A stretch of DNA of 64,000 bases. Source: an uncultured Flavobacteriales bacterium (GTDB taxonomy: Bacteria > Bacteroidota > Bacteroidia > Flavobacteriales > BACL11). The notes below the pieces were generated by a model, which saw only the letters and a list, made by a program, of their open reading frames with translations, was not told where the DNA came from and did no database searches. How positions within the stretch are numbered: position 1 is the stretch's first letter; each line of letters opens with the position of its first letter. Below are positions 23,371 through 58,361 of the stretch, piece by piece. The position numbers were made by a program, and so were the translations under genes. The stretch is taken from positions 11,886-75,885 of the forward strand of contig CAJQRK010000007.1 in the NCBI GenBank assembly GCA_905612305.1, written 5' to 3'.

Positions 23371-26300
23371 TTATTCTAATATTATTTTATTAAACCAATT
23401 AATTCCTTCAATTTCAACTTCAATAAAGTATATGCCATTTACTTTATCCTCTCTTTCTATTATAAATTTATCTACATCTTTAAGGTCATGTTCTGCAAGT
23501 AGTTTTCCTAGAACATCAAATATTCTAAGCTCTACATCTTTTAGGACCCTTCCAAAATCAACAGTTGTTTCTTCTTTAAAAGGATTTGGATATATTGATA
23601 TACCTGATAAACCAACTTCATTAATTACTGTAGTAGCGCATATTGCTTGACAATCCGTTAAGGCTGTAGCACCAGTGTATGTTCCACTTCCATTACAAGG
23701 ATCAATACAGCCATCTACAGGATCACAATTCCAAGATTCAATAAAATCAATTCCATTAGATTCAGAAGAACATCCGTTAACATCAGTAATTAATACATGA
23801 TAGGTTCCATAATCATATACCGTATAAGTTGAGCCTACACCTACATTTATTTGTGTTCCTGACAAATCTCTTATCCAAGAATAACTATAAGGTAGAGTTC
23901 CTCCTGTAGAAGGCAAATCAACCTTTAATTCATAATAGCCAATAGCACAAGGGGAAGATGATGTTCTTGAGATATCTACAGTCAGAGCATCTGGTTCATT
24001 AACCGATATGTTTTGCAACGTACTCTCACAACCATTTGCATCTTCAACAGTATAACCATACATACCAGCACTTAAGCCAGAGATAGATGCTGTTGTAGCT
24101 CCATTTGACCATAAATATGAGTATCCTGATCCTGGCGTTCCACCTGATGCTAATGCTGTTAAGCTTCCTGTACTTCCGCTATTACAATCTACATGAACTA
24201 TTGATGTATCTAAAGTGATTTCTGAAGGTTGTGTAATGGTTAATATCCCTGATGTTATTGAACAAGTAGTAATAACACTACCATTAGAAGTTTGAAATTG
24301 TGCCATTACATAATAGTCGCCTGCACTTAGAGTATTTGCTGAATTGCCGATGCCTACTGAATTTCCGTTTATGTTGTACCAAGTATAAATATAATTAACA
24401 TTTGGGCTTCCAACTAAAACAATCATCCCAGTATTATCTCCGTAACAATCTATATTATCTGTTATATTTATTTGCGGCGCAGGTAGTTGAGAGTTTATAG
24501 AAGTAACTATAGCTTGATCATTTCCACTAGGTATTACTATCCCATCACATCCATTTATATCAGTTAAGCCTACCGTATAGTCTCCAGAGCATACATTAGG
24601 AATAATACTATCTGTTGTCATAGGCAAATAAGTAGTATCTAAACTAAAATTATCTATTACTACTCCAGTATAAGGTAATGTGCCCCCTGTTATGGAGTCA
24701 ATAAATATCTGTCCATTACAAGCTCCTAAACAAAGCTCATCTGTTGAAGTAGAAATATTATACATAATAGGTAATGGCTCATATATATCTACACTTGTAT
24801 TTTGTGTGCAATTATTAGTATCAGTAACTGTTACTGAATAAGTTCCAGCAGCAAGATTGCTAATTGCGGTCAATGAGCTTAATACAACACCATTTGGCCC
24901 TACCCATGAATACATATATGGAGTATGTCCGCCAAATGCGGTTACAGATGCTGTTCCGTCCATAGCCCCATTACAACTTACAGCAGTAAATGTGCTATCT
25001 AATTCCATAGTCGCTACAACAACTGAAATATCCTCTGTAGCAAAAGCCTGACAACCTCTAGAATCTGTTGCAGTAACTGTATAAATATCTGCCTCTAAAT
25101 TTACAGCTGTTGCAGTAGTTTGTGGTAATCCTTGATTATCATCCCATAAATATGAGTATCCTGGCGTTCCACCTGATGCTGATGCTGTTAAACTTCCTGT
25201 ACTCATTCCATTACAATACACTGGTATTATGTCAATAATACTTACTGTAAGATAAGGAGGTTCATGTATTTCTACGGTATCACTAGCTGTACACCCCTTA
25301 GCATCTGTTACTGTAACTAAATGAACTCCTGGAGATAAAGTATTCACAGTATCACCTATCTGATTACCATTCCAACTAAAAACATACGGCATTGTTCCTC
25401 CCCATGCAGTTGAAAAAGCTAAACCGTCAGATGAATCCTTGCATGATATCCAAGCTAATTCTGATGCCTCCATTGTTAACAAATTAGGCTCTGTTAAATA
25501 AATACTATCTACAACTGAGCAGCCTAAAGAATCCTCTGTTGTTAAAGCATAAGCCCCATAACTTAAATAAAATGCAGTATCTACTACCCCTGTATCTAGG
25601 GGTTGATTATTACTCCATGAGTAAATGTATAATGGATACCCTCCTACAGTACTCACAGATACTATTCCATTAGTACTTCCATAACAATTGATTGTAGAAT
25701 CAATCACTAAAGTAGAAATGATTTCTGGACTCTCAGGTATAAAGATACTATCACTCACCTCACAACCTCTTCCGTCAGTTACACCAAAGGTATGATAACC
25801 AGAAGTTAGGTGTTCGGCCAAAAGAGTATTCTCTCCACTATCCCATAAATAAGAATATGAAGAATCGCCCCCGCTATAATAAGCTATGGCTCTTCCACTA
25901 TTATCTCCAAAACAATCAATAGAATCAACCAATACGATCGTATCAACTTTTAATGCATCTAAAGGTTCGTTAATAGTGATACTGGTTTGAGAAGCGGTAC
26001 AACCCCTATGATCTATTATATCTAACAAATAAACATCCGCCGGCATATTATATAATGTATCCGTATTAGATAATCCAGGATGTTGCTGTATAACACCTCC
26101 TAGAGAAGTAGACCAAGTATAAGTATATGGAGCAAAACCTCCACCAGCATCACCTATAATAAAACCACTGCTATCACCTTTACAAACTACAGGTGAAATC
26201 TGAGTAGTACTGAACAAAGCAGTACTCGGTGAAAGAATCTGAACCGAAGAAACTGTATCGCAACCATTTGCGTCAGTTATCCTCACATAATAAATGCCAG

Positions 26301-27120
26301 CAGCTAAATTAAATGCCGTATCATTAGTAGATATTGTAGGATTGTTTGGCCCAACAACACCACTATACCAATTATATAAATAACCAGGAGTACCCCCAGC
26401 TCCTATTGCTATAGACCATGCTGTACTATCCTGATGACATACAGTTATTGTATCAAGAGTCAGAACCTGTAAAGGGAAAAGTGGTACATTTATAAAAATT
26501 TCTTCTTCAATATAACAACTCATATTGTCTGTTAAAGAGACTAGATATGTTCCTTGAGTTAGATTATCAAATACCGAATCTACTGGATTTATATTTAATA
26601 CACCATTTAAAGAATAGTAAAATGGATTTGTCAAATTGGACAGCATTTCAATAGCAATTCTACCATCATCTCCCCCGTAACAGTTTACATTAGAAGAATT
26701 AATATTATAACGAATTGGAACCATTGTGTCAGATGGTCCAGAGATGCTAGCGCATAATGAATTTAATGTTAAATAATAATAATGAACGCCTTGTGGTACA
26801 TTAGAAGAATCAATAGTATAACTATCATTAGGATAAATAATATCAACTAATTGAGAATAAGGGCCTCCTAAATTAGGTGCTCCTAAAATTTGGTAAGAAG
26901 TTGAGTTATTAGCAGAGAGCGAGTGATTCCAACTTATTGTAATATCACCCTCACTATTTTCAGTGACACACCGAAAATCTGGAGCAGGCTGTGTAAGGGC
27001 AGGTAATATTGTAATTTTCATTGTTGCAATAGTAATTGCATTCGCAGGACAGAAATCATCATACACTTTTACTAAAAAGGTGAAAATATTAGTAGTTGCC
27101 CCACAGCCAGCATCTGACAA
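23371..27120 (-). CDS. SprB-repeat cell-surface protein, 3' 1249-codon segment of a frameshift-split gene (T9SS type A C-terminal sorting domain)
   Basis: Many C-x-G-x3-G...GG-x-PY-x-Y-x-W repeats (e.g. CFGDNSGRAIAYYSGGDSSYSYLWDSG). The C-terminus ..ISIYPNPFKEETTVDF...GIYFIEVEIEG..KIILE is Por_Secre_tail-like. No ATG (the track uses TTG) and no signal peptide. The frame stays open upstream through the poly-C tract. Confidence 0.8.
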   Translation of the reverse strand: MSDAGCGATTNIFTFLVKVYDDFCPANAITIATMKITILPALTQPAPDFRCVTENSEGDITISWNHSLSANNSTSYQILGAPNLGGPYSQLVDIIYPNDSYTIDSSNVPQGVHYYYLTLNSLCASISGPSDTMVPIRYNINSSNVNCYGGDDGRIAIEMLSNLTNPFYYSLNGVLNINPVDSVFDNLTQGTYLVSLTDNMSCYIEEEIFINVPLFPLQVLTLDTITVCHQDSTAWSIAIGAGGTPGYLYNWYSGVVGPNNPTISTNDTAFNLAAGIYYVRITDANGCDTVSSVQILSPSTALFSTTQISPVVCKGDSSGFIIGDAGGGFAPYTYTWSTSLGGVIQQHPGLSNTDTLYNMPADVYLLDIIDHRGCTASQTSITINEPLDALKVDTIVLVDSIDCFGDNSGRAIAYYSGGDSSYSYLWDSGENTLLAEHLTSGYHTFGVTDGRGCEVSDSIFIPESPEIISTLVIDSTINCYGSTNGIVSVSTVGGYPLYIYSWSNNQPLDTGVVDTAFYLSYGAYALTTEDSLGCSVVDSIYLTEPNLLTMEASELAWISCKDSSDGLAFSTAWGGTMPYVFSWNGNQIGDTVNTLSPGVHLVTVTDAKGCTASDTVEIHEPPYLTVSIIDIIPVYCNGMSTGSLTASASGGTPGYSYLWDDNQGLPQTTATAVNLEADIYTVTATDSRGCQAFATEDISVVVATMELDSTFTAVSCNGAMDGTASVTAFGGHTPYMYSWVGPNGVVLSSLTAISNLAAGTYSVTVTDTNNCTQNTSVDIYEPLPIMYNISTSTDELCLGACNGQIFIDSITGGTLPYTGVVIDNFSLDTTYLPMTTDSIIPNVCSGDYTVGLTDINGCDGIVIPSGNDQAIVTSINSQLPAPQINITDNIDCYGDNTGMIVLVGSPNVNYIYTWYNINGNSVGIGNSANTLSAGDYYVMAQFQTSNGSVITTCSITSGILTITQPSEITLDTSIVHVDCNSGSTGSLTALASGGTPGSGYSYLWSNGATTASISGLSAGMYGYTVEDANGCESTLQNISVNEPDALTVDISRTSSSPCAIGYYELKVDLPSTGGTLPYSYSWIRDLSGTQINVGVGSTYTVYDYGTYHVLITDVNGCSSESNGIDFIESWNCDPVDGCIDPCNGSGTYTGATALTDCQAICATTVINEVGLSGISIYPNPFKEETTVDFGRVLKDVELRIFDVLGKLLAEHDLKDVDKFIIEREDKVNGIYFIEVEIEGINWFNKIILE

Positions 27121-27145
27121 AATTTGATTACAATCCGTTTGCCAT

Positions 27146-28402
27146 TCAAAAACTCCTGAAACGACAGAAGGAGCAACTATTGGGGGGGGGGGTTCCTGAT
27201 AAATCAGTAAAGGTTGCGCAAGGAGGATTATCGCAAGCAGAAGTAGTGATATAATCGGCTGCCATTTGCCCTCCTGAAATTTCCATAGTAATATCTTGCA
27301 TTACGCCAGCAGCATACTGATCCAGATCATTACCAACAATATCAAAAGTAATAAATGCTCCTGCATTTACAGTTGTAGAATAAGAAGGTAAACCTGCAGG
27401 ATTAAGTGTTGTTGTCCAAAGTTGAGTGCCTACTGGAGCTGTAATTGTTGGCGGATTATTAACTAGTCCATTTGACATTGTAGGGCAAGCAATCAGCACC
27501 GCTTGTATTTCACGATAGATAGAGGCTACTTTTTGAGCACACTTATAAGCATCTACCCTAACTACAGTAGCAAAATTTCCTGAAATATTAGAATTATATG
27601 AAATTTCTCCTGTAACAGGATCTAGATTTACATTTCCAGGCAAAGGTGCATTGACAGTATATGGCGCTAACCATGGCACAGAGGGAGGATTCCCTCCTGC
27701 TGGATTAAATGGAGCAATAAAATCATCTAATGGCTCATCCCAAGCATATGTAATAGCATCTAACTCTTCATCTGAAGCATTATGAGAATAGGCAAAAGGA
27801 TATCCTGTGCAAATAATTGTTTTTGGACTCTCATTAAAAATAGGTGAAGAATCAAAACAAGGATCTGCTGGAATTTGTAATCCAGTTAAAGGATCAAAAT
27901 AAGGAAACATTGAAGCCCTCAAGGTAAATCCTTCTCCAGGAGAAATTGTACTAGAAAGCACTAAATTAGAGGTCGCTCCATTTCTACAACAAGAATCCCA
28001 AGTAAAATGCCAGCCTGTAGCTGAAGGTAATCCTGGCAAAGTAACAGGTTGTGAAATGTAAATATATTCTTCAACTGCCCCAACAGGATTGCTACTACAA
28101 TCTAAGCAAGCATTTCCACTATTTATAGAATTTCCAATAGGAGAAATGTCAGTGCTGATAATAAAATTCACAGATAGTTGAGTAACTGTTGGATGATCCC
28201 ATACATAAATGGTTTGTGCAGAAGTAGGGAGTGTAGTTCCATCACAATCTCTATACATTTTCATAGTAAAAATATACTTCCCTACATTAGGATCCAAAGG
28301 ATCTTTAATGCATTTCCAAGTAATTTCACCTCCCATCATATGAGTAGCATGTAATGGTACAGAAGAAATTAATAAAAAACAAAAAATAAATATTTTTTTC
28401 AT
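27146..28402 (-). CDS. 5' 418-codon segment of the same split adhesin gene (signal peptide plus conserved N-terminal domain)
   Basis: MKKIFIFCFLLISSVPLHA signal peptide, then THMMGGEITWKC.., an N-domain seen in large Cytophaga/Flavobacterium surface proteins. It ends 11 codons after the C11 run. Confidence 0.75.
   Translation of the reverse strand: MKKIFIFCFLLISSVPLHATHMMGGEITWKCIKDPLDPNVGKYIFTMKMYRDCDGTTLPTSAQTIYVWDHPTVTQLSVNFIISTDISPIGNSINSGNACLDCSSNPVGAVEEYIYISQPVTLPGLPSATGWHFTWDSCCRNGATSNLVLSSTISPGEGFTLRASMFPYFDPLTGLQIPADPCFDSSPIFNESPKTIICTGYPFAYSHNASDEELDAITYAWDEPLDDFIAPFNPAGGNPPSVPWLAPYTVNAPLPGNVNLDPVTGEISYNSNISGNFATVVRVDAYKCAQKVASIYREIQAVLIACPTMSNGLVNNPPTITAPVGTQLWTTTLNPAGLPSYSTTVNAGAFITFDIVGNDLDQYAAGVMQDITMEISGGQMAADYITTSACDNPPCATFTDLSGTPPPNSCSFCRFRSF
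27182..27192 (-). repeat. homopolymer: 11 x C on the coding strand (G11 on +)
   Basis: The sequence reads t-ggggggggggg-ttcctgat. It lies at the junction of ORFs 27146..28402 and 23371..27120, which are in frames offset by 1. Confidence 0.98.
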
Positions 28403-28424: not shown

Positions 28425-31400
28425 TTATCTGATTAAGGTTATACTTCCTTTTTCTATATAGGAATTTCCCTTTTCCCCAGTAGCTTCCATAGTGAAGAAA
28501 TACACTCCTTCAGGTAATAATTCTCCATTATACCCTTTTCCATCCCAAGATCCTTGTGGGGTCTCCCAATGATACACCTTAACGCCCCATCTATTATAGA
28601 TACGAACATATAATTTGCTTAACATCTCATCATTAAAATGAAATACCTCATTATATTTATCTCCATTTGGAGTAAAGACATTATTTACATCATAACCCTC
28701 TACATCAATAGAAGAAGTGAATGTGCTGCTACAATCATCTGAAAGATCTAAATTATTAGCAGTTAATGATATTATATAAGATCCCTGAGTAATATATTGA
28801 TGTGTAGGTTCAAAGGCATAGTCCTCCTGACTGCCATCCCCAAAGTCCCAGATAAACTGGTTGACAGGATTGTTTCCTGATAATGGCGAACTAAGATTAG
28901 TAAGATATACTGTTTTGCCTTTGTTTATTAATATCTCTGATAAAATAAAATCTGCAATAATTTCATCAGGTTGGTCAACAAGCATTCCACTTAAAGTATC
29001 TTTACATCCATGATGATCTGTCACTACTATAGAGTAATTTCCTACATTTAGATTATTTGCTTCTAGTGCATCCATCTGCTCAAAAACAATTCCATTATCA
29101 AAGAAACTTCCTGATCTATTAATTGTATACTCATAAGGAGCAACACCACCAGTAAAGATTATTTCTAATTTCCCGTCCTCACTCTGATAACAACTTAAAG
29201 AGGTAACTGTTGCTGTTAATATAATTTCTCCAGAATCTGTTACAAGTACATTAGAACTGTCAAGCGGGCAGTCATTTATATCAAAAACTGACAACAGATA
29301 ATCATTAGAGCTTAAATTTGAAAAAGTTGAGTTAGGCTGAGGTGTGTCATTATTTAAACTGTATTGATATGATGGAGTTCCTCCAGTTGCCATGATTGTA
29401 ATCACTCCATTGGCCTCACCAGCACATAAATTGTTTGTAATCTGTAATGTCAACTCTAATTGTGTTGGCTCACTAATATCAACAGTGATAGATGCCGTGC
29501 ATTCATTAGCGTCAGTTACAGTACATGTATTGAGAACCGCTTCTAATGAATAGTTAATAGAATCTGTTCCTCCATTATCCCAAAGATAAGTATAGCCTGG
29601 AGTACCTCCTAAAACACTAACTTCTGCCTGCCCATCATCCCCTCCATTGCAGCTCACATCTTGTATAACTGTATCAAATAACTGCACAGGTGATGGCTGT
29701 ATAATTTCTATACTATCCGCAACCGCTACACACCCTTTGCTATCAGTAACAGTAACAGTATAGGTTCCTATCTGTAGATTCTCTATTAAAGGATCTAATT
29801 GTTGTGGATGACCTACTGGTATAGATATTGTATTATCCCACTGCCAATCATATGGACCCACTCCTCCAAAAGCACTTACTTCTATTGATCCATCATTTCC
29901 ATTATAACAACTTACATTTATCTTTTCATCAAAAATACCAAGAGAATCATATTGATTAATAATTACTGTTGTATCTATTGTACATCCATAGACATCTGTC
30001 ACAACAATATTAAATGTATCAGCATATAGATATAGAAAAAAACTATCAGCTTGAGAAGTCAACCCAGAATCAATAGAATAAATTAGTGGCCAAGTAGCCG
30101 AATCATTAACGTTTATAATTATTTCTCCGGTAGAAGTTCCATAGCAAACAGAATCGGGGTAAAGAATAGTATCAATGATTAATGGATGATTCTGATTTAA
30201 AGCTAATACCCTAAAAGAATCTATTGGTAACCACAAAGTATCAGAACAACCATTTGCGTCAGTTATACTAATTCTGTAAAGATCAGCAGTTAAGCCATCT
30301 AATACATAAATTGAGTCAAATTGTATATGATCCCACTGATAAGATGTGCAAGTATCACAATAAATTGCATTAGCTGTATAAGACCCATTAACAGCAGGAT
30401 TATTATATAACTCCCAGTTAAAGGTATACGGCTTAGTGCCTCCTCTTATTTCAAATGCTATACTTCCATCATACGATTCACCCAAACAAGATTCTGGTAA
30501 GCTGTAGTCTTCTCTTTTTGCTGCAAGTGCTAATTGATTAGGTGCCGGAAGCACACTAGCAGAGTCCATAGCAAAACATCCTACAGAATCATAAACAGTA
30601 ACAAAATACATACCTTCAGTTAAACTATCTGTTTGTGAGATTAATAAAGAGTCAACAATAGTATTTGTAGAATCTTTCCAAACATAAGTATAAATAGGCC
30701 CTTTTCCGCCATGTACATAAACTTCCATTACGGCATCAGAACTATCATAACATGAGATGGTTGTTACTAAGAAACTATCAATATAAAGTGATGAATCAAG
30801 TACGGAAACCGTATCTCTAATAATACAATTATTCCCATCTAATACTTGCACTTCATATTCTCCAACACACAAACCACTAAACATACTATCAGAAAGAATT
30901 GGACCACTAAAATAATTAACAGATGTATTTACTCTATTGATATAGTATTTGTATACAGAATATCCTGCAAAGGATGATGTGTCTGGAATACCACCAACTG
31001 GTGAATTAGGTAGCCATACCTCACCATCACATGTCCCAGGATTAGTACAATAAACCGCTGAACTTAATGGAGAGTCATACGAAATTACTTCAGGTTCTAA
31101 AATCTCAAATGTATCGGATCTCACTACACATCCTGGATATTTGGAATAAGATATTGCTTGTACTCCATAAATACCTTTATATAAATAATCGTAGTAAATC
31201 AAACTATCTATACTACTAGATGAGTCTGTTGTAATTAAGTTAGGATTAAGGGTGTCATTATATAACCATAACTGATAATCATAACATACATTAGGGTATA
31301 AAACTTGTACAGTTGCATTTATGGAATCATAACACAACATATTAGTGAATGATATTTGCATATCTAATTGAGATGCTAGTGATGTATCTATACCTAATTT

Positions 31401-34400
31401 TGTGTTAACCGAAGATGTAGTTGCTAGGTAACTAATATAATCTACACTATCCTGACAACCAAATTCATCACTTATATTTATTTTATAATACCCCCTGGTA
31501 AGATTTACAAAATTTGCAGAATCCTGAATATGAGCAGGATCATTATTGAAATCTGTAATAAATGATTGGGAAGGCCATACATTAAGACCATCCATAAAAG
31601 GATATACACCTACATTACTGTCAATAGCAATTGCTATGTTATCAAAACTAATTCTATACTCTACTGTATCCCCGTCACCTTTAAGAATATTAGTAAATAT
31701 AGAACCATCAAAACCACAACAACTTTCTTTTATTTTGTCTATTGAAAGCAGTTCTAGTGGCACAACTTTTTCTACAATTACTTCAAAATCTGGTACAGCA
31801 CAACTGTCAGAATCTATTACCGAAATGATATAGGTGCCGGCTGTTAATCCAATAATAAAAACAGTATCTGGCTCATCAACTGTAGCTGACAAAACACTAT
31901 TTATAAGTACTGTATAAGGCGAAGCCCCTCCAGAAGGGATAAATGAAATTATCCCATCATTCTCGCGACAAGTTTCTTTTATAACTATTGGTGGACTAAT
32001 ATTAGTACTAATACTATCTTTAACCTCCACTAGTATATCCCAATATACTTCACACCCCAGATTGTCCTTTACATAGATACTATCATAGAAACCATGTGTA
32101 ACTGGGAAAAAGGTCTCTGAAAGATTACTAGAGGACAAAATACTAGCACCATTAATAAAATATGAAATAGGAGGATTAGAAGGAGACAGATCGATCTGAA
32201 CTGTTATCGATCCATCAAATTGACTACCACATACGTCAGGGAAAGGGACAACATCTACAATATCCAACTGATATTCGTCAATAATAAAAGGATATGAACT
32301 AGGAACACACCAAGCATTATTTTGATATAATCGTATTGAATAATCTCCAGCGATTAAGTATTGGAATGAGGTGTCTCCTACAGGATTTGCTGGAATAAGA
32401 GGATTGCCAAATACATCTCGAATCTGATAAGTGTAACTAATGGAAGGATCTGGATTATCAAACTCTACTATTATTTGAGTGCTATCATTTGAACAAAGAA
32501 TATCTCCTGAAACTGTATTTAATCTCGTTATTAGGTAAAGTTCAGGTTCTAGAATCTCAATAGTAACAGTATCTATTGTGCAAGTTGATGTAGTATCAGG
32601 AGTTAAAATAAAATTATATATACCAGCATTCAAACCTCCAATTGTATCACGATTTGGCAACCCAATACTATCAAAAGATAAATCAAAAAATTGCGAACCT
32701 GACCAGCCACTTCCTAAATTCAGACTAACCTGACCTTCACTAGCCCCAGGGCAAATGTTATGAAGCAGAAAATTATCAACAAAACAAGTAGGCGCAAGGT
32801 TCATTTGTAAAATTATAGGATATGAGCTACATGTATAAGGGCCATTATCAGTAATTACAACTGAATATAATCCAGTATCAATTGAAGATAAGGTATTAGA
32901 TGATGAGTTTTGCAACACATTGCCTAATGAATTATACCAAACATAATTATAGGAAGGATTTAATGTATCTGGATAACCACTGCCTAGCGCTAAATTAATT
33001 GTAAAAGCACCATTAAGATTAATCGTATCAGAAACAAAAGCTATAAGGGTATCGACTACAAAAGGCTCTCCATCTCTATTTACAAAAATGGTTACTGTGG
33101 AGTCACAGCCATTGCTATCCTCAAACGTATAATAATAAGTGGCTTTTCCTAATTGATAATTTCCACTACTATTGGGTGTTGAACTTGAAAAGGTGTGAGA
33201 GGTATCATTTGTAGTCCATGTAGAGTTAGTAGATAGTTGTGTGGGGTATAATGGAGATAAGAAAGGAACAGTATCTAAACTATAGGTAAATGGAGGAGCT
33301 CCAAAAGCATTATTGATCTGTATCTGACCATCTAAAGCAGGAAAACAAGTAACATTTACAGCGCTAGAATTACCATGATCGCACATTGGGCAAATCTGCG
33401 CACAAACAAGAGAATCATTATATGATCCAAGTCCTGTTCCTGGATCAGAACAACCATTTCCAGGATTACAATCCCAAGAAGGTGGAGGGGGCGGAATTGT
33501 AAATATAGAATCATCATCACAACCATTAAGATCTGTAGCAATCACCGTATAATTACCTGGAGATAAATTTGTAATATTTGCTGAAGATGAACCAAATGCA
33601 TTAGGCCCTGTCCAGGAATAAGTATATCCTGGCGCTCCACCACTTGTAAATATATTTATACTATTACCGACAGCAGGAGGAGGCGGCACAATATTACCCG
33701 ATACAATTAATTGTGGAGGTGATGAATCAACCATAAAATCCATATATTCAGAAAGTAGTGGATCAGTAGGATTTTGTAGTTGAGCTTGTTGTATATTAGG
33801 AGCGGCATTTGGATTTTGTGTTTGTGGAGGATATGCAGCATAAACTAAAGCAGAATCTACAATAAATACCCTATAGTTAGCTACTAGAGGTTGCTGCCAT
33901 CCTAGCGACGAAAAAGGCTGAGTTTCACCTGTAGTGATGCCTGACGAGCCAAATGCAAACAATAAAGCTCCTGTATATTTATAATTCAATAGTTTTACTG
34001 GAGTTCCTGGAGTTGTTTGTGTCATATAAACTGTAACAGTATCAATGTCGCCATAACACATAATAGGAGTAGTTGTAACAACCGAATCAAGAGTTACTGG
34101 AAGTAGAGGATTAACAATGATAACTCCTTTCATTCCCATTCCAGCATGAGGCTGACAAACATAATAATATGTTTGAGCGATTACTGGAGTAAAAGATCCT
34201 CCTCCAAAAGGGATATTAAATCCCCCATTTGAAGTCATTCCATTAGCAATCCAAGTAGCTTGATCAACTTCAACCGCATTATGCGTCGCAATAAGACTAA
34301 AAGTAATTGCAGTTCCAGTAGTAATAGTAATTGTATCTGGAGTAAAAGTGTTTCCTAGATTAGTAATCTGAGCGCTTATGTTTTGAGTAAGAAATAACGA

Positions 34401-34436
34401 CAAGAAAAGAGTCGTAAATAGTAAGTATTTTCTCAT
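28425..34436 (-). CDS. 2003-aa cell-surface protein: signal peptide, cupredoxin-like domain, SprB-type repeats, PKD domain, T9SS type B (gliding-motility-associated C-terminal) sorting domain
   Basis: MRKYLLFTTLFLSLFLTQNISA signal peptide. YYYVCQPHAGMGMKGVIIVN type-1 Cu motif. Repeats such as CNGGDDGQAEVSVLGGTPGYTYLWDNG. PKD segment FIWDFGDGSQ..HQY. C-terminus VFTPNGDKYNEVFHF...YNRWGVKVY...GVYFF..GSITLIR. Confidence 0.85.
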   Translation of the reverse strand: MRKYLLFTTLFLSLFLTQNISAQITNLGNTFTPDTITITTGTAITFSLIATHNAVEVDQATWIANGMTSNGGFNIPFGGGSFTPVIAQTYYYVCQPHAGMGMKGVIIVNPLLPVTLDSVVTTTPIMCYGDIDTVTVYMTQTTPGTPVKLLNYKYTGALLFAFGSSGITTGETQPFSSLGWQQPLVANYRVFIVDSALVYAAYPPQTQNPNAAPNIQQAQLQNPTDPLLSEYMDFMVDSSPPQLIVSGNIVPPPPAVGNSINIFTSGGAPGYTYSWTGPNAFGSSSANITNLSPGNYTVIATDLNGCDDDSIFTIPPPPPSWDCNPGNGCSDPGTGLGSYNDSLVCAQICPMCDHGNSSAVNVTCFPALDGQIQINNAFGAPPFTYSLDTVPFLSPLYPTQLSTNSTWTTNDTSHTFSSSTPNSSGNYQLGKATYYYTFEDSNGCDSTVTIFVNRDGEPFVVDTLIAFVSDTINLNGAFTINLALGSGYPDTLNPSYNYVWYNSLGNVLQNSSSNTLSSIDTGLYSVVITDNGPYTCSSYPIILQMNLAPTCFVDNFLLHNICPGASEGQVSLNLGSGWSGSQFFDLSFDSIGLPNRDTIGGLNAGIYNFILTPDTTSTCTIDTVTIEILEPELYLITRLNTVSGDILCSNDSTQIIVEFDNPDPSISYTYQIRDVFGNPLIPANPVGDTSFQYLIAGDYSIRLYQNNAWCVPSSYPFIIDEYQLDIVDVVPFPDVCGSQFDGSITVQIDLSPSNPPISYFINGASILSSSNLSETFFPVTHGFYDSIYVKDNLGCEVYWDILVEVKDSISTNISPPIVIKETCRENDGIISFIPSGGASPYTVLINSVLSATVDEPDTVFIIGLTAGTYIISVIDSDSCAVPDFEVIVEKVVPLELLSIDKIKESCCGFDGSIFTNILKGDGDTVEYRISFDNIAIAIDSNVGVYPFMDGLNVWPSQSFITDFNNDPAHIQDSANFVNLTRGYYKINISDEFGCQDSVDYISYLATTSSVNTKLGIDTSLASQLDMQISFTNMLCYDSINATVQVLYPNVCYDYQLWLYNDTLNPNLITTDSSSSIDSLIYYDYLYKGIYGVQAISYSKYPGCVVRSDTFEILEPEVISYDSPLSSAVYCTNPGTCDGEVWLPNSPVGGIPDTSSFAGYSVYKYYINRVNTSVNYFSGPILSDSMFSGLCVGEYEVQVLDGNNCIIRDTVSVLDSSLYIDSFLVTTISCYDSSDAVMEVYVHGGKGPIYTYVWKDSTNTIVDSLLISQTDSLTEGMYFVTVYDSVGCFAMDSASVLPAPNQLALAAKREDYSLPESCLGESYDGSIAFEIRGGTKPYTFNWELYNNPAVNGSYTANAIYCDTCTSYQWDHIQFDSIYVLDGLTADLYRISITDANGCSDTLWLPIDSFRVLALNQNHPLIIDTILYPDSVCYGTSTGEIIINVNDSATWPLIYSIDSGLTSQADSFFLYLYADTFNIVVTDVYGCTIDTTVIINQYDSLGIFDEKINVSCYNGNDGSIEVSAFGGVGPYDWQWDNTISIPVGHPQQLDPLIENLQIGTYTVTVTDSKGCVAVADSIEIIQPSPVQLFDTVIQDVSCNGGDDGQAEVSVLGGTPGYTYLWDNGGTDSINYSLEAVLNTCTVTDANECTASITVDISEPTQLELTLQITNNLCAGEANGVITIMATGGTPSYQYSLNNDTPQPNSTFSNLSSNDYLLSVFDINDCPLDSSNVLVTDSGEIILTATVTSLSCYQSEDGKLEIIFTGGVAPYEYTINRSGSFFDNGIVFEQMDALEANNLNVGNYSIVVTDHHGCKDTLSGMLVDQPDEIIADFILSEILINKGKTVYLTNLSSPLSGNNPVNQFIWDFGDGSQEDYAFEPTHQYITQGSYIISLTANNLDLSDDCSSTFTSSIDVEGYDVNNVFTPNGDKYNEVFHFNDEMLSKLYVRIYNRWGVKVYHWETPQGSWDGKGYNGELLPEGVYFFTMEATGEKGNSYIEKGSITLIR

Positions 34437-54956: not shown

Positions 54957-57900
54957 ATGAGAAAAATACTATTCCTTCTTTTTATCACTTTCCAGTTCTC
55001 AGTGTTTTCACAAGTGGAAATGCAATACAATACTAATACTGAAGGTTTACCAAATTGGGTACAACTAATATATGCAGAAAATCCAGATGAAGGAGCTGTC
55101 ATTCAAGCCTACAGAAGTTATTATAAAAGCCATAAATTAGTAAAAAATAAACATACTCAATACTATAAAAGATGGGTCCGAAATCTAAGTAGAACTACTA
55201 CTGTTCCTCAAACCCTGACAAATTCAAAAAGCAGTAACCAATGGGAATGTGTAGGTCCTTGGGATTTTGATAAAGATGCGGCAAGTAGAAGTTACGCCCC
55301 CGGTTCAGCACATGTTTATACAGTGGAACAATCAGTCAGTAATCCGAATATTTTATATGCAGGAAGTGCAACTGCTGGGGCTTGGAAAACTATCGACAAA
55401 GGCGCTAACTGGAACTTAATAACTAGTAATTTAGCGCTAAATGGAGTATATGCAATTGAAATAGATTTTACTAACCCAGAAATTATCTACATTAGTGGCA
55501 ATGGAGGAATTTACAAATCATATGATGGAGGAGTAAACTGGACAGTTATTGGAGATGCATCTTTTACCAACCTTTCCCATTCTACTAAAGACATAAAACT
55601 AAAACCAACAAATAATATGGAGCTCTTTGTGGCCTCTGATGAAGGATTATATCATTCATTGGATGGAGGGCTAAATTTTACTCAAGTAATGAGTGGTGAA
55701 TTTTTAGAAATTGAGTTTCATCCTAACTCAGCTGACACCATGTATTTTATAAGAAAAAGTGGAGATAAAACTGAATTTTATCGCTCTGATGATGGAGGAA
55801 TTACATTAATCAATTTCACAAATGGCTGGCCTAATCCTGGAACTGGAGATGATCAAAAAAGAACAGAAATTGCAGTTAGCCCTGCAGCACCAAATAAAAT
55901 TGTTGCATTAGCAACAGGTTCTGCAAATGGAGGAAGTGGTCTTTATGGAATTTATATAAGTTATGATAAAGGAGAAAATTGGTCTTTCCAGTGTTGCGGC
56001 TCACAACCAGCCGGAGTGCCATCTGCAACAAATATTAATATGATGGGGTGGCAACCAAGTGGCCTAGATGATGGAGGTCAATATTATTACGATTTAGCGC
56101 TTGCAGTAAACCCAAATAATGCGGATAGTATTCATGTAGCAGGTGTGAATCAATGGATATCTGCAGATAATGGTATAACTTTCACTTGTCCTGCGAAATG
56201 GAGCGAACCACATAAAAAAGGATATGTTCATGCAGACATTCATGATATCAACTACTTTGGAAATGACTTATGGTTTGCTTGTGATGGAGGAATATTCTAT
56301 TCCGATAATGCAGGCGATAGTACTTACAAAAAGCAGTATGGAATTGCAGGAACAGACTTTTGGGGTTTTGGTGCAGGATTCAAGGATGGAAATGTAATGC
56401 TTGGTGGAGCTTATCATAATGGTACTCTTCTAAAAGATAACAACACATATATAAACGATTGGATTTGTACAGATGGCGGTGATGGAATAAGAGGGTTTGT
56501 AAATTTCGGCAACCCTAGAATAGCTTATAGTGATTATGGAGGCAAAACACTTTCAGGAGACAGAACGGTTAACATTGCCTCCTTACCTTTAGATAAAAAA
56601 CCAAATGCCTCCTATATTATTGGAGAATCATCCCAAATGGAATTTGACCCAAGATGTCATAATTGGAGCTATATTGGTAATGACACTAGCCTTTGGTTAT
56701 CTAAAAACAATGGAGCTTCTTATTCGGCAGTTCATCATTTTAACGAAAAAATAACGGCAGTGGAGGTAGCTTGGAGTAACCCAGATGTTATCTATGTAGC
56801 CACTTGGGAAAGCTGGTGGGGAAATAAAAAAATCTATAGAACTAATGATGCTGGGCAAACTTGGGTGGACATCACTCCTACTAATATAAGCGGGCAAGCT
56901 TGGATTCCGTATGATATCACCATAAGTAGTTATGATGAAAATACGCTTTGGATTGCTAGGTGTTCTATGTATGGTGGCGTACAAGATGCTCAAGGAGAGG
57001 AAGTATTTAAATCAATAAGTGGTGGGCAGAATTGGATAAACTGGAGTACCCCAGCACTTGACAATATAAATGCTACCAATATTGAACATCAAAGAGGAAG
57101 TAATGGAGGTGTATATCTTGGTACGAGAGATGCTGTTTATTACCGAAATAATAGCATGAATGATTGGGATATTTACGATAATAACTTGCCTAAAAGCACT
57201 ACATCTACTCAGTTAATCCCTTATTATCGTGAAGGGCTTTTACGAAATGGAACCAACAGAAGTGCATTCGAAATCGACTTCTATGAAGACACACCTCCAT
57301 CAGCACAAATTGCTGCTAACAGATTAGAAATTAATTGCATGAATGATACCGTTCGTTTTGTAGATCATTCGGCTATAAGGCTAAGCAGTGCTACTTGGCA
57401 ATGGTCTTTTCCTGGAGGAACGCCAAGTAGTTCGTCTTTGGAAGATCCAATAGTGGTGTACACTCAGCCAGGAACTTATGATGTAAGCTTAACTGTTACG
57501 GATGTTTTTGGGACAAATATGCAAACCATTAACAATTTTATTACTTATACAGATTCTGTTTTTCCGATCACAAATACAACTTCATTGTATGAAGGTTTTG
57601 ATTCAGGAAACTTCCCTCCTATAGCTTGGGAAACCCCTCCTGCTATTTTTTCATGGCAAAGTATTGATATTGATACAGGTATGAATTGTCAACCAAATAC
57701 AGTTGCGTATGTCAACCATTACTGGATTAATGAAAGAGGAGAAGAAGCTTCCTTAATTTCAAAAAAAATAAAACTAGGGGGAGGTAATTCTGCTCAAAAT
57801 TGGCTGACTTATGATTATGCTTATTGCGGATTTAGCGGCTATGCAGATGGTTTTCGGATTGAAATTTCTACTGATTGTGGGGCAACTTGGGATTCTATTT

Positions 57901-58361
57901 ATGGAGCAAGCGGAACGGCCTTGCAAACCACAAGCTATGTAAATAGTCCTTGGTATCCTACGTGTGGTTCTTGGAAAACTGATAGTTTGGATTTAACTTC
58001 TTTTGGATATAATGGAGATACCATTATGGTAGGTTTTGTAGCTATTAATGATTATGGAAATCGCTTTTTCATGGATAATGTAAACATTAATGGACAAAAT
58101 ATCTTGGTGATTGAAGAAGGAGAAAGCAATACTTTCCATACTTCTATTTACCCTAACCCAACTAAAGGTGTTTTTAACATCAGAACTGATGCAAATAAAC
58201 TAGAAGTTGAGATATATAACCTAATGGGAGGACTTACAACTAGTAGAATAGTTAGAAATGGATTACAACAAGTTAACCTTAGTAGTCATGCAAAAGGAAT
58301 TTATTTTGTAAAACTGAAAAGTGGTAGAAAAACTGAGCAAAGGAAATTGATTCTTCAGTAA
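54957..58361 (+). CDS. secreted BNR/Asp-box beta-propeller protein with PKD domain, choice-of-anchor-J-like domain and T9SS type A sorting domain
   Basis: 1134 aa. Signal peptide MRKILFLLFITFQFSVFS. About 9 Asp-box-like S-x-D-x-G-x-x-W motifs (SYDGGVNW, SYDKGENW, TNDAGQTW, SISGGQNW...). PKD segment (WSFPGGTP..GTYDVSLTVTD). C-terminus ..SIYPNPTKGVFNI...GIYFVKLKSG..KLILQ. Confidence 0.8.
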   Translation: MRKILFLLFITFQFSVFSQVEMQYNTNTEGLPNWVQLIYAENPDEGAVIQAYRSYYKSHKLVKNKHTQYYKRWVRNLSRTTTVPQTLTNSKSSNQWECVGPWDFDKDAASRSYAPGSAHVYTVEQSVSNPNILYAGSATAGAWKTIDKGANWNLITSNLALNGVYAIEIDFTNPEIIYISGNGGIYKSYDGGVNWTVIGDASFTNLSHSTKDIKLKPTNNMELFVASDEGLYHSLDGGLNFTQVMSGEFLEIEFHPNSADTMYFIRKSGDKTEFYRSDDGGITLINFTNGWPNPGTGDDQKRTEIAVSPAAPNKIVALATGSANGGSGLYGIYISYDKGENWSFQCCGSQPAGVPSATNINMMGWQPSGLDDGGQYYYDLALAVNPNNADSIHVAGVNQWISADNGITFTCPAKWSEPHKKGYVHADIHDINYFGNDLWFACDGGIFYSDNAGDSTYKKQYGIAGTDFWGFGAGFKDGNVMLGGAYHNGTLLKDNNTYINDWICTDGGDGIRGFVNFGNPRIAYSDYGGKTLSGDRTVNIASLPLDKKPNASYIIGESSQMEFDPRCHNWSYIGNDTSLWLSKNNGASYSAVHHFNEKITAVEVAWSNPDVIYVATWESWWGNKKIYRTNDAGQTWVDITPTNISGQAWIPYDITISSYDENTLWIARCSMYGGVQDAQGEEVFKSISGGQNWINWSTPALDNINATNIEHQRGSNGGVYLGTRDAVYYRNNSMNDWDIYDNNLPKSTTSTQLIPYYREGLLRNGTNRSAFEIDFYEDTPPSAQIAANRLEINCMNDTVRFVDHSAIRLSSATWQWSFPGGTPSSSSLEDPIVVYTQPGTYDVSLTVTDVFGTNMQTINNFITYTDSVFPITNTTSLYEGFDSGNFPPIAWETPPAIFSWQSIDIDTGMNCQPNTVAYVNHYWINERGEEASLISKKIKLGGGNSAQNWLTYDYAYCGFSGYADGFRIEISTDCGATWDSIYGASGTALQTTSYVNSPWYPTCGSWKTDSLDLTSFGYNGDTIMVGFVAINDYGNRFFMDNVNINGQNILVIEEGESNTFHTSIYPNPTKGVFNIRTDANKLEVEIYNLMGGLTTSRIVRNGLQQVNLSSHAKGIYFVKLKSGRKTEQRKLILQ

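What the first reader, a model, noticed from the sequence alone, without database searches (positions are those of the whole stretch)
27146..27195. 11-nt poly-C tract splits a 1,676-codon T9SS adhesin gene: candidate slipped-strand ON/OFF switch
The coding (-) strand reads GGA ACC CCC CCC CCC AAT AGT, i.e. 11 consecutive C (G11 at 27182-27192 on +). The upstream ORF (27146..28402, signal peptide MKKIFIFCFLLISSVPLHA) stops 11 codons after the run. The +1 frame is open across the run and continues straight into ORF 23371..27120. That ORF has no ATG (the track start is a TTG) and no signal peptide, yet it carries all the SprB-type repeats and the T9SS type A sorting domain. With 10 or 13 C the two merge into one 1,676-aa protein reading ..FTDLSGTPPPIVAPSVVSGVFEWQTDCNQILSDAGCG.. 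I saw no other G/C homopolymer longer than 6 nt in this AT-rich 64 kb. A long homopolymer early in a surface-adhesin gene is the classic architecture of slipped-strand phase variation. As sequenced the gene is OFF, giving a 418-aa stub without a sorting signal. Alternative explanations are a homopolymer sequencing error, or transcriptional slippage or +1 frameshifting restoring some full-length product.
Basis: partly seen in the sequence, partly recalled or inferred. Interest (0 to 1): 0.72.

Follow-up and report, generated by a model that had tools for sequence, protein, structure and literature searches.

The report
Poly-C frameshift splits surface-protein gene
One large secreted cell-surface protein gene of an uncultured marine Flavobacteriales bacterium is broken by a single extra C in a run of 11 C; the run arose recently and is prone to slippage, so it may be an on/off switch, but it could also be a one-base length miscall.

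Summary
G11 at 27182-27192 (C11 on the coding strand) is the only G/C run longer than 6 nt in the window. It separates a 418-codon ORF with a signal peptide from a 1,249-codon ORF with SprB repeats and a T9SS type A sorting domain. Removing one C gives one 1,676-codon gene.

All 83 homologous loci read straight through this site. The frameshift falls inside a confidently folded beta-sandwich domain, so this is one gene.

None of the 83 homologues has a homopolymer here. They encode the conserved (P)PP motif with mixed CCT/CCA/CCG codons. The closest relative (L089, 92% nt identity, syntenic) has ACC CCT CCT CCA, in frame. The window differs by two synonymous T>C changes plus one inserted C. 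CCC makes up only 3.5% of Pro codons here. No G/C run longer than 8 occurs in 1.2 Mb of related DNA.

The region downstream of the frameshift shows no relaxed constraint, so the break is very recent, reversible or not real.

The tract is very likely real and intrinsically slippage-prone. No tract-length variation, tract conservation or other such loci could be shown. A one-base miscall of a real C10 tract remains a strong rival.

It is a plausible but unproven new example of a well-known mechanism.

The parts
27182..27192 (-). C11 homopolymer on the coding strand (G11 on +). It encodes Thr-Pro-Pro-Pro (ACC CCC CCC CC...). It is one base longer than the in-frame length of 10.
   Evidence: The alignment to relatives shows exactly one extra base.
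23371..28402 (-). The whole gene. With C10 it is one 1,676-codon ORF: signal peptide, about 470-aa three-domain beta-sandwich head, FN3-like domain, SprB repeats and T9SS type A C-terminal domain.
   Evidence: Homologues are continuous across the junction.
27146..28402 (-). Upstream ORF as sequenced: a 418-aa stub made of the signal peptide, most of the head and 11 out-of-frame codons, ending in TGA at 27146-27148.
   Evidence: No Pfam or NCBIfam hit.
28346..28402 (-). Sec-type signal peptide MKKIFIFCFLLISSVPLHA: a basic N-region, a hydrophobic core and an A-x-A-like end.
   Evidence: Read directly from the translation. In the model, residues 2-13 form a helix followed by a low-confidence segment. 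No signal-peptide predictor was run.
23371..27300 (-). Downstream reading frame, open for 1,310 codons and overlapping the tract. The listed ORF starts at TTG 27120. It has no signal peptide of its own.
   Evidence: SprB PF13573 has 8 stretches, E=9e-49.
23380..23595 (-). T9SS type A C-terminal sorting domain (residues 1176-1247 of the downstream ORF).
   Evidence: PF18962 E=2.4e-13. TIGR04183 E=1.3e-11, 44.3 bits against a cut-off of 23.

Best explanation
This is a single gene for a large T9SS-secreted, SprB-repeat cell-surface protein, a presumed adhesin. It carries a very young, lineage-specific poly-C tract. The tract formed when two synonymous CCT>CCC changes fused an already C-rich Thr-Pro-Pro-Pro segment (ACC CCT CCT CCA) into C10. 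The sequenced molecule has one more C (C11), which throws the ribosome out of frame after codon 407. The result is a 418-aa periplasmic stub that lacks the sorting domain. A G/C run of 10-11 nt slips during replication, so cells of this lineage should flip between C11 (OFF) and C10 (ON), mostly by loss of one C. The gene therefore behaves as a stochastic, heritable and reversible ON/OFF locus, whether or not selection has shaped it for that role. Some full-length protein may also leak from the OFF allele, either by +1 slippage of tRNA-Pro on CCC-C or by RNA polymerase slippage.

Shown: the gene structure, the frameshift, the origin and uniqueness of the tract, and the lack of decay downstream.

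Inferred: that the 11th C is real, that switching occurs, that leaky expression occurs, and any adaptive value.
For: One gene: 20 homologues align across the junction with invariant W420, C424, F442, D448, C451 and P452 in the fused frame. All 83 homologous loci are in frame at the site. In the AlphaFold model (pLDDT 84.8), residues 404-407 sit between strands 396-399 and 408-411 of one domain, with local pLDDT 92.

The tract is real and non-random. Its flanks align codon for codon to relatives with exactly one extra base. CCC is 3.5% of Pro codons, and 3 of the 22 CCC codons are in the tract. No G/C run longer than 8 occurs in 1.21 Mb of related loci. Runs of 9 or more G are expected 0.06 times per shuffle.

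The tract is young and derived: outgroups have AAT CCT CCT CCA, and the 92%-identical syntenic L089 has ACC CCT CCT CCA.

The assembly is not generally error-prone at homopolymers. Nine A/T runs of 8-9 nt lie in intact ORFs, no other gene in the window is split, and MetH, UvrD and EF-G are full length.

The gene is not an old pseudogene. Against L089, dN/dS is 0.17-0.21 over about 900 codons downstream of the frameshift. The window branch has 2 nonsynonymous and 13 synonymous codon changes; the L089 branch has 4 and 16.

Mutability by analogy: in C. jejuni G11>G10 occurs at 3.9e-3 per division and G10>G11 at 3.7e-4; in mismatch-repair-proficient meningococci, G10-G12 tracts switch at 1-3e-5 (PMC3401435).

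CCC-C is a known +1 slippery site, about 1% in E. coli at the second codon (PMC4519876).
Against: No read-level or population data exist, so the 11th C may be a miscall. The tract is not conserved: none of the 83 homologues has it, including the nearest relative. No second G/C tract or other simple repeat is in the window. There is therefore no sign of the multi-locus set of switches typical of organisms that use this mechanism. Two synonymous T>C changes at dS of about 0.2 could arise by drift or by dislocation mutagenesis, and this window was picked because it contains the run. Switching rates come from distant bacteria, one of which lacks MutS/MutL. The frameshift is a singleton within its family, a class that Antonov et al. 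attribute mostly to sequencing errors or recent indels (PMC3711429).
Confidence: 0.45

Rival explanations
1. Length miscall. The organism really carries the young poly-C tract, but at C10. The gene is intact and normally expressed, and the 11th C was introduced by sequencing, library or whole-genome amplification, or consensus calling at a long G/C homopolymer.
For: The frameshift sits exactly at the only long homopolymer in the window. The rest of the 1,676-codon frame is flawless and under purifying selection equal to that of the intact sister copy. Every homologue is in frame. Singleton frameshifts validated by homology are mostly attributed to sequencing errors (PMC3711429). Many family members from long ENA contigs carry obvious frameshifted tails, which shows how common such artefacts are in these data sets (P0014, P0031, P0040, P0041 and P0046).
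Against: The window shows no other frameshift in about 50 genes. Nine A/T runs of 8-9 nt are read correctly. An error explains only the extra base, not the tract itself, which needs two T>C differences from the nearest relative. Even at C10 the tract would still be slippage-prone in vivo.
Confidence: 0.35
2. Fresh, non-adaptive inactivation. A chance homopolymer slipped once and the gene is on its way to becoming a pseudogene. Reversion is possible but plays no biological role. The genome tolerates the loss because it has paralogues and other T9SS surface proteins.
For: The tract is unique to this lineage. Related genomes carry several paralogues of this family: three loci in MAG SP47 and two each in AC_MB403 and UWMA-0277. 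The window alone has two more large T9SS cargo genes.
Against: No secondary lesions and no excess of nonsynonymous changes are seen downstream, so any inactivation would be extremely recent. At the rates measured elsewhere, a C11 tract reverts far faster than point mutations accumulate. Permanent loss would need a second hit.
Confidence: 0.15
3. Programmed recoding. The C11 allele is the normal state. A fixed fraction of full-length protein is made by +1 ribosomal frameshifting on CCC-C during Pro-Pro-Pro stalling, or by transcriptional slippage. This would give both a 418-aa periplasmic product and the secreted 1,676-aa product.
For: CCC-C is a +1 slippery sequence (PMC4519876). The run is longer than an RNA-DNA hybrid, a condition under which RNA polymerase realignment occurs at other homopolymers (own knowledge; runs of 8 nt or more, PMC3711429).
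Against: Programmed sites are conserved, and this one is absent from all 83 homologues. The codon after the run in the zero frame (AAT) is common. No conserved stimulatory element was found. The 418-aa stub ends inside a domain, so it is unlikely to be a functional product.
Confidence: 0.05

Closest known systems
Poly-G/C phase-variable surface genes of Campylobacter jejuni, for example the capA autotransporter adhesin with a G11 tract, and cj1139 (PMC3401435)
   Same: A G/C homopolymer of 8-12 nt lies inside the reading frame of a surface-protein gene in an AT-rich genome. Changes of one base toggle between full-length and truncated products. At G11 the dominant event is loss of one base, which here would be OFF to ON.
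   Different: C. jejuni has about 29 such loci per genome (PMC4965091 abstract). Its tracts are conserved among strains, switching has been measured, and it lacks MutS/MutL. Here there is one tract, it is absent from the closest relative, nothing has been measured, and the organism is a free-living marine Flavobacteriales.
Helicobacter pylori SabA adhesin (PMC2715451) and poly(A) tracts in Listeria monocytogenes inlA (PMC2831843)
   Same: An adhesin gene is switched or inactivated by slipped-strand mispairing at a repeat within the coding region.
   Different: The repeats there are of other types (CT dinucleotide, poly-T, poly-A). Both organisms are host-associated pathogens, and variation among isolates is documented.
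Flavobacterium johnsoniae SprB and other SprB-repeat T9SS cell-surface proteins (own knowledge plus Pfam PF13573)
   Same: It has SprB repeats, a signal peptide and a T9SS C-terminal sorting domain, and it comes from a member of the Bacteroidota.
   Different: It is not an SprB orthologue. It is 1,676 aa (SprB is about 6,500 aa, own knowledge), has a type A (TIGR04183) rather than a type B CTD, and has a different, unnamed N-terminal head. No role in motility or adhesion has been tested.
Genes rescued by polymerase or ribosome slippage at homopolymers: Buchnera poly(A) tracts (cited in PMC2831843) and CCC-C +1 frameshifting (PMC4519876)
   Same: A frameshifted gene at a long homopolymer could still yield some full-length product.
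   Different: Those cases involve A/T runs, or single CCC-C sites at about 1% or less. No evidence exists for this locus.

Membership tests
Simple-sequence-repeat (slipped-strand) phase-variable contingency locus | A repeat tract long enough to be hypermutable lies within the ORF or promoter | tested here: met
   C11 at 27182-27192 inside the ORF. Tracts of G8-G12 switch at 1e-5 to 4e-3 per division elsewhere (PMC3401435).
Simple-sequence-repeat (slipped-strand) phase-variable contingency locus | Changes in tract length toggle between full-length and truncated product | tested here: met
   In silico, C7/10/13 give 1,675-1,677 aa, and C8/9/11/12/14 give 407-419 aa.
Simple-sequence-repeat (slipped-strand) phase-variable contingency locus | Tract length is polymorphic among cells, isolates or samples of the same species | not testable with these tools
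   No reads are available and no same-species sequence was found: exact look-ups of the stub, EF-G and S7 found nothing; the metagenome pattern scan gave only chance hits; the best protein hits were 85% or less.
Simple-sequence-repeat (slipped-strand) phase-variable contingency locus | The tract is retained in related strains or species, or several such loci occur in the genome (evidence of selection for mutability) | tested here: not met
   None of the 83 homologous loci has a homopolymer at the site. The 92%-identical syntenic L089 has CCCCTCCTCC. No other G/C run longer than 6 is in the window, and none longer than 8 is in 1.21 Mb of related loci. Only 64 kb of the source genome could be examined.
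Simple-sequence-repeat (slipped-strand) phase-variable contingency locus | Reversible ON/OFF switching of expression with a phenotype | not testable with these tools
   This needs a culture or single-cell data.
T9SS type A cargo protein | C-terminal sorting domain matching TIGR04183 / PF18962 above the curated cut-off | tested here: met
   44.3 bits against a cut-off of 23; 50.6 bits against 27.
T9SS type A cargo protein | N-terminal Sec signal peptide on the same polypeptide as the CTD | tested here: inconclusive
   A signal-like N-terminus is present on the upstream ORF. It is joined to the CTD only in the C10/C13 reading, not in the sequence as given.
T9SS type A cargo protein | T9SS machinery genes present in the genome | not tested
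   None was looked for beyond the window. Two other CTD-bearing genes in the window imply a T9SS.
SprB orthologue (gliding-motility adhesin) | Type B CTD (TIGR04131) and giant SprB architecture | tested here: not met
   It has a type A CTD and is 1,676 aa. It shares only the PF13573 repeats.
Programmed frameshift or transcriptional realignment site | The shift site and frame transition are conserved among homologues | tested here: not met
   All 83 homologues are in frame without a slippery run.

The most novel reading that the evidence does not exclude
This could be a contingency locus caught at birth in a free-living, uncultured marine Flavobacteriales. In that reading, selection for mutability drove two codon-usage-disfavoured CCT>CCC changes that created a poly-C switch in a T9SS surface protein. 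Cells could then stochastically shed or display this protein, for example to escape a phage that uses it as a receptor or to alternate between particle-attached and free-living states. Keyword searches of the held literature found no described case of repeat-mediated phase variation in marine Flavobacteriia or in T9SS cargo.
Probability: 0.18. Interest if true: 0.6.

Novelty: new member of a known kind. Interest (0 to 1): 0.3.

Why it matters
If the 11th C is real and the tract varies in nature, this would extend classic homopolymer phase variation. That mechanism is documented almost entirely in host-associated pathogens. In Bacteroidota, phase variation is usually attributed to DNA inversion (own knowledge). 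The extension would be to a planktonic marine Flavobacteriales and to a T9SS surface protein. It would also show how such a switch originates: two synonymous changes in a conserved Pro-Pro-Pro segment. For annotation, the practical point is that 27146..28402 and 23371..27120 should be treated as one gene with a frameshift, not as two proteins. If the extra C is a miscall, the finding is an ordinary assembly blemish in an ordinary adhesin gene.

Tried and rejected
1. Metagenome scan for same-population alleles with the pattern GATTTATCAGGAAN{7,16}AATAGTTGCTCC. The four hits (L083-L086) are unrelated sequence with an 8-nt non-C gap.

2. Exact-protein look-ups to find the source or sister strains. 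The stub P0002, EF-G and S7 are not on record. Only S12 worked and gave L089.

3. A second homologue search centred on the junction found nothing above 77% identity. It did not even list L089's product, so the word-based search is not exhaustive.

4. Poly-G dark-cycle or chimeric-join artefact: rejected. Both flanks align codon for codon to relatives with one extra base.

5. Two genuine genes, or a split at a domain boundary: rejected by the structure model, by the homologues and by the lack of a start codon or signal peptide on the downstream ORF.

6. Generally homopolymer-error-prone assembly: not supported.

7. Other simple repeats in the window: none relevant.

8. The promoter and terminator scan around the gene was at chance level. 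This includes a weak hairpin plus T-run at 27170-27153 just after the tract.

9. The fold search gave only generic Ig/FN3/cadherin-like matches with low TM-scores. The head has no specific structural relative.

Full report
**1. Observation**

The coding (-) strand reads GGA ACC CCC CCC CCC AAT AGT. G11 lies at 27182-27192 on the + strand. The window is 34% GC. Its other G/C runs of 6 nt or more are one C6 and two G6. Runs of 9 or more G are expected 0.06 times per dinucleotide-preserving shuffle.

The ORF 27146..28402(-) is 418 aa, begins MKKIFIFCFLLISSVPLHA and stops 11 codons after the run. The other frame is open from 27300 to 23371. Deleting one C gives one 1,676-codon ORF. C7/10/13 are ON; C8/11/14 and C9/12 give stubs of 407-419 aa. 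The one exception is that codon 405 of 1,676 is not especially early.

**2. One gene, not two**

The downstream ORF has eight SprB-repeat stretches (E=9e-49) and a type A T9SS sorting domain (PF18962, TIGR04183). The upstream ORF has no Pfam or NCBIfam match.

A search with the fused residues 1-567 found 107 relatives. Many cover the junction completely: P0001 at 80% identity, and P0004, P0006-P0012 and others. In a 21-sequence alignment, residues on both sides of the tract are invariant in the fused frame: W420, C424, F442, D448, C451 and P452 after it, and P407 nearly so.

An AlphaFold model of residues 1-567 (pLDDT 84.8, pTM 0.74) is all-beta. Residues 404-407 lie between strands 396-399 and 408-411 of one domain spanning about 330-470, with local pLDDT 92. 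The frameshift therefore cuts a folded domain.

Fold search returns only generic Ig/FN3/cadherin-like adhesion molecules, Bap, and the T9SS grappling-hook protein GhpA. The first Met of the downstream ORF is residue 34 and has no signal peptide. An independent downstream product could not reach the T9SS.

**3. Context**

The gene lies 168 nt upstream of rpsL-rpsG-fusA. It lies 22 nt downstream of a 2,003-aa protein with cupredoxin, SprB and PKD domains and a type B CTD. UvrD is beyond that.

Relatives are all uncultured marine Flavobacteriales or Bacteroidota MAGs and SAGs, often with several paralogues per genome. The source genome itself is not in the searchable collections.

**4. Comparative evidence on the tract**

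I extracted the codons at the site from 83 homologous loci by tblastn. The (P)PP motif is conserved as protein but is always encoded by mixed CCT/CCA/CCG codons. Every locus is in frame.

The nearest protein-level relatives (L001/L003 and L002, 80-85% aa identity) read AAT CCT CCT CCA.

A look-up of contigs encoding an identical S12 protein gave L089 (ENA ERZ27247685, 4,426 bp). It is syntenic (adhesin-rpsL-rpsG), 91.7% identical in DNA to window 27220..23994, and covers the site. It reads GGG ACC CCT CCT CCA ATA, in frame.

The inferred path is:
- AAT CCT CCT CCA (outgroups)
- ACC CCT CCT CCA (L089)
- ACC CCC CCC CCA (C10, inferred)
- C11 (window)

Relative to its closest known relative, the window has two synonymous T>C changes plus one inserted C.

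CCC makes up 3.5% of Pro codons in the window (22 of 632, three of them in the tract), and ACC makes up 10.6% of Thr codons. In 1.21 Mb of related loci (33.5% GC), G/C runs number 282, 48, 8 and 1 at lengths 5, 6, 7 and 8. None is longer.

The tract is therefore a real, derived and strongly atypical feature. It is not a chimeric join or a dark-cycle artefact, because both flanks align codon for codon with exactly one extra base.

**5. Age of the lesion**

Downstream of the frameshift, dN/dS against L089 is 0.17-0.21 over about 900 codons. With L001 as outgroup, the window branch carries 2 nonsynonymous and 13 synonymous codon changes, against 4 and 16 on the L089 branch. The sample is small, but there is no sign of relaxed constraint.

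The 3.75 kb that would be untranslated in the OFF state has not decayed. The frameshift is very recent, regularly reverted, or not real.

**6. Assembly quality**

No other split gene is visible in about 50 ORFs. MetH (1,211 aa), UvrD, EF-G, AtpD and MetK are full length. Nine A/T runs of 8-9 nt lie in intact ORFs.

The platform is therefore not grossly error-prone at homopolymers. An 11-nt G/C run is still harder to call than any of these, and amplification slippage cannot be excluded. Several family members from long ENA contigs have frameshifted tails, which shows how common such artefacts are in this kind of data.

**7. Mechanism**

By analogy, G/C tracts of this length are hypermutable. 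In C. jejuni, G11>G10 occurs at 3.9e-3 and G10>G11 at 3.7e-4 per division. In mismatch-repair-proficient meningococci, G10-G12 tracts switch at 1-3e-5 (PMC3401435).

From C11, the commonest event (loss of one C) restores the frame. CCC-C is also a classic +1 slippery site for tRNA-Pro, about 1% in E. coli at the second codon (PMC4519876). A +1 slip inside the run yields exactly the C10 product.

Transcriptional realignment is documented mainly for A/T runs of 8 nt or more (PMC3711429), so its extent on a C run is unknown. All of this is inference for this locus.

**8. Weighing**

For an evolved switch:
- It is a surface protein.
- The tract has the right length and composition.
- The changes that made it run against codon bias.
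- The gene is otherwise pristine.

Against:
- The tract is unique among 83 homologues and absent from a 92%-identical sister.
- No further tracts were found in 64 kb or in 1.2 Mb of relatives.
- Two synonymous changes at dS of about 0.2 are within reach of drift or dislocation mutagenesis.
- The window was selected because it has the run.
- Singleton frameshifts are usually errors or fresh indels (PMC3711429).

| Explanation | Estimate |
|---|---|
| Real C11 allele of an intrinsically switchable tract | 0.45 |
| Miscall of a real C10 tract | 0.35 |
| Fresh non-adaptive inactivation | 0.15 |
| Programmed recoding | 0.05 |

**9. Novelty**

The mechanism is textbook, and the closest analogue is C. 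jejuni capA. Keyword searches of the held literature found no report of repeat-mediated phase variation in marine Flavobacteriia or in T9SS cargo. That is absence of evidence only.

The verdict is a candidate new member of a known kind, unproven, and of modest interest.

Noticed in passing
window 27146-28402 and 26700-27120 (fused residues 1 to about 470); loci L003-L082: The N-terminal head of about 470 aa (motifs GGEITWxC ... DDFCPAN, many conserved Cys) matches no Pfam or NCBIfam model. Yet 572 or more stretches in GTDB species representatives encode it, often as several paralogues per marine Flavobacteriales genome. The model shows three beta-sandwich domains. It is an unnamed, widespread domain family.
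   Followed up: partly
L066 11254-11261: The only G/C run of 8 nt in 1.21 Mb of related loci lies inside a homologue of this same gene family. It is about 25 codons downstream of the site equivalent to the window's tract and is in frame (GCGRQGGAYTF).
   Followed up: partly
window 23371-27000 compared with P0001, P0003, P0004 and L089: The gene is a mosaic. The head (residues 1-450) is 88-92% identical to P0001 and P0003, but identity drops to 25-50% after about residue 470. P0004 shows the opposite trend. Against L089, the segment before the CTD (window about 23595-23994) does not align in DNA, and dN/dS rises to 0.5-0.7. This suggests recombination or diversifying change in the stalk.
   Followed up: partly
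window 28425-34436 (-): The neighbouring 2,003-aa protein combines an N-terminal plastocyanin/azurin-like copper-binding domain with SprB repeats, PKD and a type B T9SS CTD. It lies only 22 nt upstream of the split gene. In the relative L001, the orthologue of the split gene abuts uvrD directly, without this gene.
   Followed up: no
L089 position 1 (equivalent to window 27220): The contig of the closest relative ends 27 nt upstream of the tract site. This could be coincidence, or an assembly break caused by strain variation at this spot in that metagenome.
   Followed up: no
proteins P0014, P0031, P0040, P0041, P0046 (ENA contigs of 0.1-1.7 Mb): Several family members on very long contigs end or begin in out-of-frame, low-complexity peptide. 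These look like indel errors of long-read assemblies. None of the frameshifts is at the window's site.
   Followed up: no
window 54957-58361 (+): A third T9SS cargo gene in the window: 1,134 aa with PKD domains and a type A CTD. It is intact.
   Followed up: no
window 27153-27170 (-): A weak hairpin followed by TTTTT lies immediately after the tract and overlaps the stub's stop codon. The scan as a whole was at chance level: 7 found against 5.3 expected.
   Followed up: no
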